Below, piece by piece: positions 25,422 through 26,420 of a stretch of DNA of 64,000 nucleotides. Position 1 is the first letter of the stretch, and each line of letters starts with the position of its first letter. The stretch is from a virus. Taxonomy: Duplodnaviria; Heunggongvirae; Uroviricota; Caudoviricetes. Location of the stretch: IMG/VR virus record IMGVR_UViG_2823670853_000002; one strand, given 5' to 3'. The notes beneath the pieces were generated by a model. The model was not told the origin of the DNA, searched no databases, and saw only the letters and a list, made by a program, of their open reading frames with translations. A program made the position numbers and the translations under genes.

Positions 25422-26420
25422 TTATCCGTTACCGCGCGACGGTTTCTGCGTGACAAACGTCTCAAGCATCTTTTCCGCAATTGCCGACCAGGTGTGACAC
25501 TGGACCTTTTCAGCATTTTTCACGCGATCAACGCGAGCAATAACCTCATCCCAATCAATCCGCGACTTGATAACCATATGGTTCACCAAAGCCAGGCGAT
25601 CTGGCGGAAGGCAATCGGGAGGCGTTAATACCAACGCCCCGCACATTGCCGCCTCAAGTACAGTTAATCCAAGGCTTTCGGGATGCGTAACGATAAACAC
25701 GTCACTCTTACGCAATTCAGCTGCAAATTCGGTTGCTGGCACCGGCGTCCGTCTGTATGGAGTTACCGAAATATTCCCCGGATCAATGGTAACCAATCCG
25801 TCATCAGTCAACGTTCTGGCCTCATACGGAACGGTCAGACGCTGAAGGTTCATAAGGATACTTAAGGAGTGATCAAAACCACTAACATCAAATGCAGCGT
25901 GGTCTACAAAAATACGCAGAACATCGTCTGTTTTGGTTTCCAGATGGAACAGATCCTGATTCGCTGCCCATCCAACATGTTTGTTAAAACGATTATGACG
26001 CTCTAACCTGCCTGGATTATCCAGGTACCGCCAGGTATCATCGCGGACAGTAAAAGTAATATCGACTGGTGCCGAATCCAGCATAGAACCGTCGTATACC
26101 TGGGCTACCCATCCAGTGAATCGACGACGCAGTTGCACGCCTATTTCCCTGGGCACCGTAGTAAAATACCGCAATCCTGGCGCTAAAATGGCTTTCGCAG
26201 AACACGAGGTCGCAGCGGTCAACACAGCTTCAACATAATCCTCCGGGCTTTCGACGCCGGGGGAATATGGACGATGGTATTGCAATGTTACCCCTGCCTC
26301 ACTAAAGGCGCAGGCCAGGTTGTAAGCCCACATTTCCGTATATGTTTTCACATCACTGATAGCTTCAAATTTTCGCCCAATGATCAGGATGTTCATCGGC
26401 TTTTCCTCATTCCATTGCAT
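25422..26420 (-). CDS. GT4-like (GT-B fold) glycosyltransferase
   Basis: 332 aa (or 324 from Met9 MNILIIGRKF with better RBS); PESLGLTVLEAAMCGALVL resembles the GT4 motif EGFGLxxLEAMAxGxPVI; start overlaps ban stop (TAATG). Confidence 0.5.
   Translation of the reverse strand: MQWNEEKPMNILIIGRKFEAISDVKTYTEMWAYNLACAFSEAGVTLQYHRPYSPGVESPEDYVEAVLTAATSCSAKAILAPGLRYFTTVPREIGVQLRRRFTGWVAQVYDGSMLDSAPVDITFTVRDDTWRYLDNPGRLERHNRFNKHVGWAANQDLFHLETKTDDVLRIFVDHAAFDVSGFDHSLSILMNLQRLTVPYEARTLTDDGLVTIDPGNISVTPYRRTPVPATEFAAELRKSDVFIVTHPESLGLTVLEAAMCGALVLTPPDCLPPDRLALVNHMVIKSRIDWDEVIARVDRVKNAEKVQCHTWSAIAEKMLETFVTQKPSRGNG

What the first reader, a model, noticed from the sequence alone, without database searches (positions are those of the whole stretch)
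25422..26420. GT4-like glycosyltransferase translationally coupled to the ban helicase gene
The ORF begins at the ban stop codon (TAATG overlap) and carries a GT4-type motif (PESLGLTVLEAAMCGALVL), then ends at a bidirectional terminator. I do not recall a glycosyltransferase downstream of ban in P1, so this may be cargo added to the replication operon. Co-expression with a replicative helicase raises the possibility of DNA or replisome-linked modification.
Basis: partly seen in the sequence, partly recalled or inferred. Interest (0 to 1): 0.55.

Follow-up and report, generated by a model that had tools for sequence, protein, structure and literature searches.

The report
P1 dbn, a known putative glycosyltransferase
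The ORF is the long-known but uncharacterised gene dbn of phage P1, a genuine GT-B-fold glycosyltransferase whose real partners appear to be three other sugar-transferase-like P1 genes (pmgO, pmgP, pmgQ), not the helicase gene it sits behind.

Summary
The ORF is real: minus strand, 25422-26420, 332 aa. It shows the TAATG stop/start overlap with the DnaB-like gene, an EX7E motif and a strong hairpin 21 nt downstream. It is not new cargo. It is P1 dbn (97% aa identity), annotated since 2004 as "possible glycosyltransferase" and called glt in P7. It is present in all 18 P1-like phage records matched and in 473 plasmids, under purifying selection (dN/dS about 0.12), and non-essential by CRISPRi.

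The helicase link is incidental:
- Seven P1-like contigs have a 101-aa ORF between ban and dbn.
- Cronobacter phage JK004 has other genes in that slot.
- No homologue outside P1 has a helicase neighbour.

Dbn homologues instead travel with homologues of PmgO, PmgP and PmgQ in nine loci from about six other phage backbones. They sit next to MptE-like genes in four bacterial polysaccharide-type loci (two carry Kps-type capsule export genes). Natural fusions exist: PmgO::Dbn and Dbn::DxD-transferase.

Best reading: Dbn is one enzyme of a mobile four-gene glycan-building module. The carrier is unresolved; I favour a virion protein over LPS core. DNA or replisome modification is unsupported.

The parts
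25422..26420 (-). dbn CDS with the annotated start (332 aa). An alternative, more widely conserved start is M9 at 26396-26394 (324 aa).
   Evidence: ORF list. 97% aa identity to P1 Dbn. PHROG 2518 full-length match, E 1.8e-239. The junction survey and L078 show the M9 start.
25628..25684 (-). Codons for PESLGLTVLEAAMCGALVL (residues 247-265), containing the EX7E motif E248...E256.
   Evidence: Translation. E248 is 99% and E256 100% conserved in 124 family members. Pfam Glycos_transf_1 aligns residues 229-315.
26420..27790 (-). ban, the DnaB-like replicative helicase gene. Its TAA overlaps the annotated dbn ATG.
   Evidence: Pfam DnaB_C 1.1e-107 and DnaB 2.8e-35. Annotated ban in P1.
26427..26431 (-). 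GAGGA Shine-Dalgarno sequence, 6 nt upstream of the M1 ATG, inside the 3' end of ban.
   Evidence: Read from the sequence.
26404..26408 (-). GAGGA Shine-Dalgarno sequence, 7 nt upstream of the alternative M9 ATG.
   Evidence: Read from the sequence.
25376..25400 (.). Hairpin between convergent gene 5 and dbn; probable bidirectional intrinsic terminator.
   Evidence: RNA fold: -17.6 kcal/mol, z -3.94, 0 of 200 shuffles fold as well.
24743..25375 (+). Gene 5 (baseplate), convergent with dbn.
   Evidence: ORF list. P1 annotation gp5.
27030..27057 (-). Sigma-70-like site inside ban. It coincides with the promoter annotated in P1 as predicted P2dbn.
   Evidence: Consensus scan, 9 of 12 matches. P1 annotation mapped by offset. 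Prediction only.
28065..28140 (-). tRNA with CAT anticodon upstream of ban, in the same operon (annotated tRNA-Ile2 in P1).
   Evidence: ARAGORN. P1 annotation.
30589..30616 (.). Overlapping pair of C1-repressor operator matches. Equivalent to P1 Oban/Op72ab, which controls the ban-dbn operon.
   Evidence: Pattern search: 10 matches in the window against 0.3 expected. P1 annotation.
18824..19486 (-). pmgO, a Maf/MptE-like transferase and inferred partner of Dbn.
18300..18926 (-). pmgP, a paralogue-like MptE-type protein and inferred partner.
   Evidence: Sub-threshold MptE-like Pfam hit. PHROG 2111 for its homologue. Present in 8 of 9 loci.
16928..17629 (-). pmgQ, a DxD (GT-A-like) putative glycosyltransferase and inferred partner.
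   Evidence: Its homologue matches PHROG 1962 'glycosyltransferase', E 2.9e-87. Present in 9 of 9 loci. Weak match to the DxD region of a GT-A galactosyltransferase, E 0.08.

Best explanation
The ORF is dbn ('downstream of ban') of a P1-type phage-plasmid.

What it encodes: a soluble cytoplasmic GT-B glycosyltransferase of GT4-like type. The C-terminal domain should bind an activated sugar through the conserved EX7E motif (E248, E256). The family-specific N-terminal domain should bind the acceptor.

Relation to the helicase: Dbn is transcribed as the last gene of the C1-repressed ban operon and so is made on derepression. The helicase is only its positional neighbour.

Functional partners: Dbn is one of four transferase-type enzymes that move together between temperate phages.
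- PmgO and PmgP are Maf/MptE-like, the fold of CMP-ulosonic-acid transferases.
- PmgQ is a DxD, GT-A-like protein.
- Dbn is the GT-B member.
In P1 this module is split by the tail/baseplate operon.

Inferred chemistry: the module builds a short glycan. Dbn adds a hexose-type sugar to, or next to, the residue placed by the Maf-like enzymes.

Carrier (the least certain step): I favour a phage-made (virion) protein, at about 0.4. Host LPS core comes second.

Shown versus inferred: identity, fold, conservation, co-occurrence and the fusions are shown. Donor, acceptor and biological effect are inferred.
For: Identity:
- 98-99% nt identity to P1, P7 and RCS47 across ban-dbn-gene 5.
- 97% aa identity to P1 Dbn.
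- Annotated 'possible glycosyltransferase' in P1 and glt in P7.

Fold:
- AlphaFold2 pLDDT 88, pTM 0.84.

Motif: EX7E is 99-100% conserved.

Selection: dN/dS 0.12, and 45 of 46 alleles intact.

The helicase link is not conserved:
- No Ban neighbour in any non-P1 locus.
- A 101-aa ORF is inserted between ban and dbn in 7 P1-like contigs.
- JK004 has ban (81% identity) but no dbn.

Module:
- PmgO, PmgP, PmgQ and Dbn are the only window proteins shared with nine non-P1 phage loci. They are contiguous in the lambda-like contigs and in EP_H11.
- Dbn homologues lie beside MptE-like genes in 4 of 4 bacterial loci, including two Kps-type capsule loci.
- Natural fusions exist: P0091 (PmgO::Dbn) and P0147 (Dbn::DxD transferase).

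Carrier, hints towards a virion protein:
- The PmgO::Dbn fusion sits in a head/neck gene cluster next to a 630-aa Ser/Thr-rich repeat protein.
- The D3 PmgO homologue lies between the major head protein and head-tail adaptor genes.
- In the lambda-like contigs the module is directly upstream of the terminase genes.

Other:
- No transmembrane segments.
- dbn, pmgO, pmgP and pmgQ are all non-essential by CRISPRi (PMC10695390).
Against: - No biochemical data exist for any of the four proteins.
- Pfam Glycos_transf_1 is just below threshold for this protein: 25.0 against 26.4 bits.
- The basic Arg/Lys pair that I recall GT4 enzymes using for the donor diphosphate (recalled, not tested here) appears replaced by an invariant Asp173-His174 and Asp183. 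The donor may therefore be unusual.
- In P1 itself dbn and pmgO-pmgQ lie 6 kb apart in different operons.
- P1-like JK004 keeps pmgO, pmgP and pmgQ without dbn, so Dbn is dispensable to the rest.
- No homologous candidate acceptor protein is shared among the loci. This fits a host acceptor as well as a virion one.
- To my knowledge P1 virions have not been reported as glycosylated.
- Several of the nine loci are close relatives of each other, so they represent about six independent backbones.
Confidence: 0.62

Rival explanations
1. Same four-enzyme module, but the acceptor is the host LPS core or another envelope glycolipid. PmgO and PmgP act like WaaZ-type Kdo transferases. Dbn and PmgQ act like WaaG-type (GT4) and WaaO/WaaJ-type (GT8) hexosyltransferases. 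The result remodels the core that P1 uses as its receptor, giving exclusion of superinfecting phage or less loss of progeny on cell debris.
For: - Bacterial Dbn homologues sit in polysaccharide loci with KpsM/T/E/D-type export genes. They lie next to MptE-like proteins that carry Pfam WaaZ_KDO_III hits.
- The enzyme classes in the module mirror those of the E. coli waa locus.
- The module is shared by phages with unrelated virions but the same host family, and no shared phage acceptor was found.
- There is a precedent for a Kdo transferase followed by a GT4 enzyme acting on the inner core: KdoT and GnaT (PMC12856342).
- waaZ overexpression truncates the outer core (Frirdich 2003, cited).
Against: - The PmgO profile against E. 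coli WaaZ is only a weak match (hhalign E 0.004, probability 8.5%).
- The Dbn profile against WaaG aligns only the EX7E stretch.
- From my own knowledge, known phage LPS-conversion genes are expressed in lysogens and lie near the integration or immunity regions. Here the genes are C1-repressed in P1.
- In other phages the genes sit within late or structural gene clusters.
- The best structural match of PmgO is a protein glycosyltransferase, Maf.
Confidence: 0.25
2. One reading: co-expression with the replicative helicase reflects a DNA- or replisome-linked modification, such as glycosylation of phage DNA that protects it from restriction.
For: - dbn is the gene immediately after ban, with overlapping stop and start, in 76 of 83 P1-like loci.
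Against: - ban adjacency is absent from every non-P1 homologue.
- Adjacency is broken by an inserted ORF in 7 P1-like contigs.
- JK004 has ban without dbn.
- About 30 non-DNA GT4-type enzymes match the model better than the DNA glucosyltransferases.
- The conserved partners are Maf-like and DxD transferases, not base-hydroxymethylating enzymes.
- From established knowledge, not tested here: P1 DNA carries only methyl modifications (Dmt, EcoP1 Mod) and is cut and sequenced normally. P1 has no known pathway for hydroxymethylated or hydroxylated pyrimidines that could accept a sugar.
Confidence: 0.03
3. Dbn acts alone as a stand-alone accessory glycosyltransferase. One example would be expression from the predicted internal promoters P1dbn and P2dbn in lysogens, acting on a host metabolite or surface sugar. 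The linkage to pmgO, pmgP and pmgQ would then reflect only shared mobility of accessory genes.
For: - P1 annotation predicts two sigma-70 promoters inside ban, and one is recovered by the consensus scan.
- dbn is physically separate from pmgO-pmgQ in P1.
- JK004 shows that the other three genes can exist without it.
Against: - Domain fusions with PmgO-like and DxD transferase domains exist.
- Dbn homologues are immediately adjacent to an MptE-like gene in all 13 non-P1 contexts examined.
- Both patterns are hard to explain without a functional link.
- The promoters are predictions only.
Confidence: 0.08

Closest known systems
Phage P1 Dbn (AAQ14048.1; P7 Glt; RCS47 'putative glycosyltransferase, Dbn'; PHROG 2518)
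   Same: - 97-99.7% aa identity.
- Same synteny: tRNA, ban, dbn, then convergent gene 5.
- Same TAATG junction and same length.
   Different: Nothing of substance: 10 amino-acid substitutions relative to P1. It is the same gene.
Retaining GT4-type GT-B glycosyltransferases (PimA, PimB', BshA, WaaG, GlgM, sucrose-phosphate synthase)
   Same: - EX7E motif in the same sequence context, ESLGLTVLEAAMCGA.
   Different: - Only 12-15% identity.
- At 332 aa it is compact.
- The Pfam score is just under threshold and no N-terminal Glyco_transf_4 match is found.
- The Arg/Lys pair that I recall following the first strand of the C-domain in GT4 enzymes appears replaced by invariant Asp-His and Asp.
- Donor and acceptor are unknown.
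Mycobacteriophage virion glycosylation systems (glycosyltransferases in structural operons that glycosylate capsid and tail-tube proteins; Freeman et al. 2023, recalled from my own knowledge, not read here)
   Same: - Several non-essential phage glycosyltransferases, sometimes with a methyltransferase.
- They are embedded in or beside structural gene clusters, as in L182, D3 and the lambda-like contigs.
   Different: - The enzymes are not homologous as far as tested.
- The hosts here are Gram-negative.
- The module includes Maf-like enzymes.
- No glycosylated virion protein has been shown.
- In P1 the genes are C1-controlled and dbn sits in the ban operon.
LPS inner-core pathway enzymes: WaaZ (Kdo III) in E. 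coli, and KdoT plus the GT4 enzyme GnaT in Acinetobacter baumannii (PMC12856342)
   Same: - The logic is an ulosonic-acid transferase followed by a GT4-type hexosyltransferase.
- MptE-like neighbours of bacterial Dbn homologues carry WaaZ_KDO_III Pfam hits.
   Different: - The sequence relation to WaaZ and to WaaG is marginal.
- KdoT is a GT-B enzyme, not MptE-like.
- No LPS phenotype is known for P1.
Maf flagellin glycosyltransferases and GT42 sialyltransferases (relevant to the partner PmgO)
   Different: - PmgO has only about 200 aa and lacks the flagellin-binding domains of Maf.
- From my own knowledge, E. coli K-12 offers only CMP-Kdo as a CMP-ulosonic donor. The donor is untested.

Membership tests
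P1 dbn orthologue group (PHROG 2518) | High full-length identity to P1 Dbn | tested here: met
   97% aa identity over 332/332 residues. PHROG 2518 E 1.8e-239, residues 1-332.
P1 dbn orthologue group (PHROG 2518) | Synteny: immediately downstream of ban and convergent with baseplate gene 5 | tested here: met
   The same order is found in 18 phage records.
GT-B glycosyltransferase superfamily | Two Rossmann-like domains with an interdomain cleft | tested here: met
   [not shown]
CAZy GT4 / Pfam Glycos_transf_1 (PF00534) | Score above the Pfam gathering threshold | tested here: not met
   25.0 bits against a cut-off of 26.4, C-terminal residues 229-315 only. Some relatives pass: P0099 at 29.9 and P0150 at 28.4. 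One source labels the 97%-identical cluster 'glycosyltransferase family 4 protein'. The case is borderline.
CAZy GT4 / Pfam Glycos_transf_1 (PF00534) | EX7E motif in the C-terminal domain | tested here: met
   E248 and E256, 99% and 100% conserved in 124 sequences. They align to the WaaG EX7E region.
CAZy GT4 / Pfam Glycos_transf_1 (PF00534) | Basic Arg/Lys pair after the first strand of the C-domain that binds the donor diphosphate (feature recalled from my own knowledge) | tested here: inconclusive
   By sequence and secondary-structure position, the strand at 168-172 is followed by invariant D173-H174 and D183 instead. No residue-level structural superposition was available. R224 or R237 might substitute.
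CAZy GT4 / Pfam Glycos_transf_1 (PF00534) | Glycosyl transfer from a nucleotide sugar with retention of configuration | not testable with these tools
   Needs an enzyme assay.
Phage DNA glucosyltransferases (T4 AGT/BGT type) | Specific structural or sequence affinity to DNA glucosyltransferases | tested here: not met
   [not shown]
Phage DNA glucosyltransferases (T4 AGT/BGT type) | Co-occurrence with enzymes that make a hydroxymethylated or hydroxylated base | not tested
   Not scanned here. From established knowledge, P1 has none. The conserved neighbours found are transferases only.
PmgO/PmgP/PmgQ/Dbn glycan module (defined here) | Co-occurrence of all four genes in unrelated phage backbones | tested here: met
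   Nine non-P1 loci, about six backbones. In L182 PmgO is fused to Dbn and no separate PmgP is present. IME392 also has the Dbn and PmgO homologues within 600 bp.
PmgO/PmgP/PmgQ/Dbn glycan module (defined here) | Domain fusion between members (Rosetta-stone evidence) | tested here: met
   P0091: PmgO-like residues 25-219 (E 6e-35) plus a Dbn domain at 219-520. P0147: a Dbn domain plus a DxD-transferase domain at 329-488 (E 1e-22).
Phage virion glycosylation system | A glycan attached to a virion protein, dependent on these genes | not testable with these tools
   Only positional hints in relatives.
LPS core glycosyltransferases (Waa enzymes) | Recognisable homology to WaaG (for Dbn) or WaaZ (for PmgO) | tested here: inconclusive
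   hhalign of Dbn against WaaG: E 0.0075, 35 columns. hhalign of PmgO against WaaZ: E 0.0039, probability 8.5%.
Known anti-phage defence systems (PADLOC) | Match to any defence-system model | tested here: not met
   No hits for Dbn, PmgO, PmgP or PmgQ.

The most novel reading that the evidence does not exclude
P1 and several unrelated temperate enterobacterial phages carry a previously unrecognised four-enzyme glycosylation system: the Maf-like PmgO and PmgP, the GT-A-like PmgQ and the GT-B Dbn. It assembles an ulosonic-acid-containing (probably Kdo-containing) glycan on virion proteins. This would be the first virion glycosylation system described for Gram-negative phages. Alternatively, the same system rewrites the LPS core that P1 uses as its receptor.
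Probability: 0.35. Interest if true: 0.65.

Novelty: already known. Interest (0 to 1): 0.3.

Why it matters
As submitted, the finding is ordinary. The gene has been in the P1 reference genome since 2004 with the same tentative label, and its position behind ban does not indicate a helicase-linked function.

The comparative result is the useful part. Four P1 genes of unknown function (dbn, pmgO, pmgP, pmgQ) behave as one mobile glycan-building unit across phage backbones and are fused in some genomes. That turns four orphan 'putative morphogenetic' or unknown genes of a classic model phage into one testable hypothesis: virion or LPS glycosylation. It can be examined with simple deletions and mass spectrometry in a genetically tractable system.

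P1-like phage-plasmids are also abundant in clinical Enterobacteriaceae: 473 plasmid records carry the gene.

Tried and rejected
Searches that did not reach useful relatives:
- Two scans of viral contigs with Dbn alignments returned only P1-like copies.
- The broad 88-sequence alignment was too diverse to make search patterns.
- The single genome-contig scan gave only three loci.

Searches that were uninformative:
- A sequence-only search of solved structures was topped by spurious KtrA matches to the N-terminal Rossmann region. Glycosyltransferases appeared only at E above 0.1.
- NCBIfam gave only sub-threshold hits.
- PADLOC gave nothing.
- hhalign of the Dbn profile against WaaG, and of the PmgO profile against WaaZ, was marginal. 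I do not claim orthology to Waa enzymes.

Literature:
- No functional study of dbn, pmgO, pmgP or pmgQ turned up. I found only a CRISPRi essentiality table and a transcriptome mention.
- The 2004 P1 genome paper could not be read under the PMC id I tried.
- I found nothing on virion glycosylation in Gram-negative phages.

Rejected ideas:
- A conserved upstream partner of Dbn was tested by comparing the upstream genes of L003 and L004. They are unrelated.
- A shared phage-encoded acceptor protein was looked for and not found.
- The helicase-linked and DNA-modification reading was considered and rejected, for the reasons given under the rival explanations.
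Full report
**1. Observation**

The ORF is on the minus strand at 25422..26420 and encodes 332 aa.
- Its ATG shares one base with the TAA of the upstream 456-aa ORF at 26420..27790, giving TAATG on the coding strand.
- The upstream protein is a DnaB-type helicase: Pfam DnaB_C 1e-107 and DnaB 3e-35.
- The quoted peptide PESLGLTVLEAAMCGALVL is residues 247-265.
- A perfect 10-bp stem with a 5-nt loop lies at 25376-25400, between the stop of convergent gene 5 and the dbn stop. It folds at -17.6 kcal/mol, z -3.9, and none of 200 shuffles folds as well.
- Its A and T tracts on either side fit a bidirectional terminator. The crude consensus scan missed it.

The description is therefore accurate, with one caveat about the start codon, treated in section 5.

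**2. Identity**

The region 25300-27900 matches 18 phage records at 97.6-99.4% nucleotide identity over its whole length. These include P1, P7, RCS47 and SJ46.
- In P1 the ORF is dbn. Its product Dbn is annotated "function unknown, possible glycosyltransferase".
- In P7 it is glt, "putative glycosyltransferase".
- Protein identity to P1 Dbn is 322/332.
- tblastn finds it in 473 PLSDB plasmids, 452 of them at 95% identity or more. These are mostly about 90-100 kb non-mobilizable replicons of E. coli, Salmonella and Klebsiella, that is, P1-like phage-plasmids.
- Among 46 distinct alleles from 70 full-length P1-like copies, 45 are intact and the median dN/dS is 0.12.
- A genome-wide CRISPRi screen of P1 scored dbn as non-essential (PMC10695390).

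Its stated refutation condition, "gene present in canonical P1", is met, although no unrelated function is known.

**3. Is it a glycosyltransferase?**

Sequence evidence alone is thin.
- Pfam Glycos_transf_1 scores 25.0 bits against a cut-off of 26.4 and covers only residues 229-315.
- NCBIfam gives nothing useful.
- PHROG 2518 is "unknown function".
- A profile search of PDB sequences is topped by irrelevant KtrA matches.

Structure settles the question.
- An AlphaFold2 model built on 17 homologues has pLDDT 88 and pTM 0.84.
- All of the top 50 hits are GT-B-fold proteins, almost all of them glycosyltransferases.
- BFVD matches are viral glycosyltransferases.

The wider family also supports this.
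- An exhaustive profile search finds a discrete family of about 376 clusters at 50% identity, mostly about 310 aa.
- Across 124 of them the invariant or near-invariant residues are D110, W151, D173-H174, D183, T245-H246, E248, G251, E256, G261, W290 and W311.
- E248...E256 is the EX7E motif, in the canonical context ESxGxxxLEAxxxG.

One unexplained departure remains. GT4 enzymes, as I recall them, place an Arg/Lys pair after the first strand of the C-domain. This family instead has invariant Asp-His and a further Asp. I could not superpose residues to test this.

The protein has no hydrophobic segment long enough for a membrane span.

**4. Is the helicase a functional partner?**

No, for three reasons.
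- Dbn homologues at 47-57% identity occur in at least five other phage backbones. These are several lambda-like contigs with GpA-type terminase, a 95-kb Citrobacter replicon type, and the 111-116 kb E. coli phages EP_H11 and IME392. None has a DnaB-like gene next to it.
- Cronobacter phage JK004 is P1-like (Ban 81% and gp5 77% identity). It has five small unrelated ORFs between ban and gene 5 and no dbn anywhere.
- In 7 of 83 P1-like loci a 101-aa ORF lies between ban and dbn.

The slot after ban is a variable accessory slot. The overlap with whatever gene lies upstream is the usual compact-operon arrangement, and the homologues in other phages overlap unrelated upstream genes in the same way.

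**5. Start codon**

In those seven variants, and in every homologue outside P1, the protein starts at the residue equivalent to M9 (MNILIIG...).
- In the window, M9 is at 26396-26394, with a GAGGA 7 nt upstream.
- M1 also has a GAGGA, 6 nt upstream.
- The first eight residues are specific to the P1 lineage and are modelled with low confidence.

The true start may be M9, 23 nt after the ban stop, in which case there is no overlap.

**6. Real partners**

In the lambda-like contig L004 the Dbn homologue sits in a contiguous block of five genes:
- a PHROG 4603 protein, labelled alpha-2,3-sialyltransferase;
- a PHROG 2111 protein;
- a 189-aa DxD protein;
- the Dbn homologue;
- a PHROG 1962 "glycosyltransferase".

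tblastn shows the window encodes homologues of three of these at 18824-19486, 18300-18926 and 16928-17629. These are P1 pmgO, pmgP and pmgQ.

In nine non-P1 phage loci, representing about six backbones, the Dbn homologue is accompanied by PmgO and PmgQ homologues. A PmgP homologue is present in eight of the nine; the exception is L182, where PmgO is fused to Dbn. The genes are usually contiguous. An all-against-all comparison shows these four are the only window proteins shared with those loci.

Bacterial contexts agree.
- In four bacterial or metagenomic loci the Dbn homologue lies beside an MptE-like gene, several with Pfam WaaZ_KDO_III hits.
- Two of these loci carry KpsM/T/E/D-type capsule export genes, in Colwellia and in Brucella pseudogrignonensis.

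Two natural fusions exist.
- P0091 joins a PmgO-like domain (E 6e-35) to a Dbn domain.
- P0147 joins a Dbn domain to a domain like the 189-aa DxD protein (E 1e-22).

The PmgO model (pLDDT 84) best matches three structures:

PmgQ has a DxD motif and a weak match to a GT-A galactosyltransferase. PmgO is far more widespread in phages than Dbn, 73 records against 22. JK004 keeps pmgO, pmgP and pmgQ without dbn. Dbn therefore looks like an optional extending enzyme of a module centred on PmgO.

In P1 the module is split. pmgO-pmgQ and dbn lie on the same strand, 6 kb apart, on either side of the oppositely oriented operon of genes 26, 25, 7, 24, 6 and 5. Both blocks are downstream of C1 operators in the P1 annotation, and the Op72-type operator pair is found in the window at 30589-30616. 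All four genes are non-essential by CRISPRi.

**7. What the module acts on**

This step is inference.

For a virion or other phage-made protein:
- The closest fold of PmgO is a protein O-glycosyltransferase.
- In Pseudomonas phage D3 the PmgO homologue lies between the major head protein and head-tail adaptor genes.
- The PmgO::Dbn fusion gene lies in a head/neck cluster with a DxD transferase, a PmgQ-like gene and an FkbM-type methyltransferase. It lies two genes downstream of a 630-aa protein made of about 23-residue Ser/Thr/Tyr-rich repeats.
- In the lambda-like contigs the module is directly upstream of the terminase genes.
- Mycobacteriophage virion glycosylation is a precedent (my own knowledge).

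For host LPS core:
- The bacterial relatives sit in polysaccharide loci.
- Their MptE-like neighbours have WaaZ-type hits.
- The enzyme classes parallel the waa locus.
- No shared phage acceptor was found.
- KdoT followed by the GT4 enzyme GnaT is a biochemical precedent (PMC12856342).

I put a virion protein at about 0.4, LPS or another envelope glycolipid at about 0.25, and other targets at the remainder.

DNA modification gets about 0.03.
- The DNA glucosyltransferases are not among the best structural matches.
- The helicase link is not conserved.
- P1 has no known hydroxymethyl-base pathway (established knowledge, not tested here).

**8. Verdict**

- The glycosyltransferase call is supported by fold.
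- The novelty claim is refuted: the gene is already known and annotated.
- The helicase- and DNA-linked interpretation is unsupported.

The added value is the evidence that dbn belongs with pmgO, pmgP and pmgQ in one mobile glycan-building module. To my knowledge and in the literature searched this has not been described, and it is directly testable in P1.

Noticed in passing
L078:5699-6004 (also L079-L084); L179:31363-31653: A 101-aa ORF (MMQRKLTKRNKNW...) lies between ban and dbn in 7 of 83 P1-like contigs, overlapping the dbn start as ATGA. By eye it resembles the first small ORF downstream of ban in Cronobacter phage JK004. Its function is unknown. It marks the post-ban position as a variable accessory slot.
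   Followed up: partly
window 26394-26420: There are two candidate dbn starts, M1 (overlapping the ban stop) and M9, each with its own GAGGA. M9 is the start conserved in all homologues outside P1. P7 annotates an even shorter glt (864 nt).
   Followed up: partly
Dbn residues 173-174 and 183 (window about 25872-25904, minus strand): Invariant Asp-His and Asp occupy the position where, as I recall, GT4 enzymes have the diphosphate-binding Arg/Lys pair. This suggests an unusual donor or a metal-assisted mechanism. It remains unexplained.
   Followed up: no
L182:1643-3535: A 630-aa protein built from about 25 tandem repeats of roughly 23 residues (SPSLYSDADTFYTQTVT...) rich in Ser, Thr and Tyr. 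It lies two genes upstream of the PmgO::Dbn fusion gene in a phage head/neck cluster. It is a candidate heavily glycosylated substrate.
   Followed up: no
P0091 and P0147 (proteins): Natural fusion proteins: PmgO-like plus Dbn (522 aa), and Dbn plus a DxD-transferase domain like L004:7435-8004 (526 aa). About ten further Dbn-family proteins of 520-555 aa have uncharacterised C-terminal extensions. One, P0110, carries a methyltransferase domain.
   Followed up: partly
window 16928-19486 and 25422-26420: The transferase-like genes pmgO, pmgP, pmgQ and dbn flank the oppositely oriented tail/baseplate operon (genes 26, 25, 7, 24, 6, 5, at about 20624-25375). The module looks interrupted by that operon. 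A lambda NinI-like phosphatase gene, ppp (17626-18318), sits between pmgP and pmgQ in P1 but not in the other phages.
   Followed up: no
window 2171, 14769, 16861, 16910, 20535, 30589-30616, 33876, 50544, 52214: Ten matches to the P1 C1-repressor operator consensus ATTGCTCTAATAAATTT at up to 3 mismatches, against 0.3 expected by chance. The P1-annotated operator Oppp (Op83), expected near 19627-19643, was not recovered at this stringency.
   Followed up: partly
window 28065-28140, 29781-29856, 29859-29934: Three tRNA genes (anticodons CAT, TGT and GTT) lie on the minus strand in the same long C1-controlled transcription unit as ban and dbn, as in P1.
   Followed up: no
L179:26081-26653 (Cronobacter phage JK004): JK004 lacks dbn but encodes a homologue (41% identity) of the 189-aa DxD protein that sits next to Dbn in the lambda-like contigs. 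The membership of the module therefore varies between phages.
   Followed up: no
H51, H52 (Stenotrophomonas jumbo phages CM1 and RAS14): These phages show a 27%-identical match to the C-terminal half of Dbn only (residues 138-331). The context was not examined.
   Followed up: no
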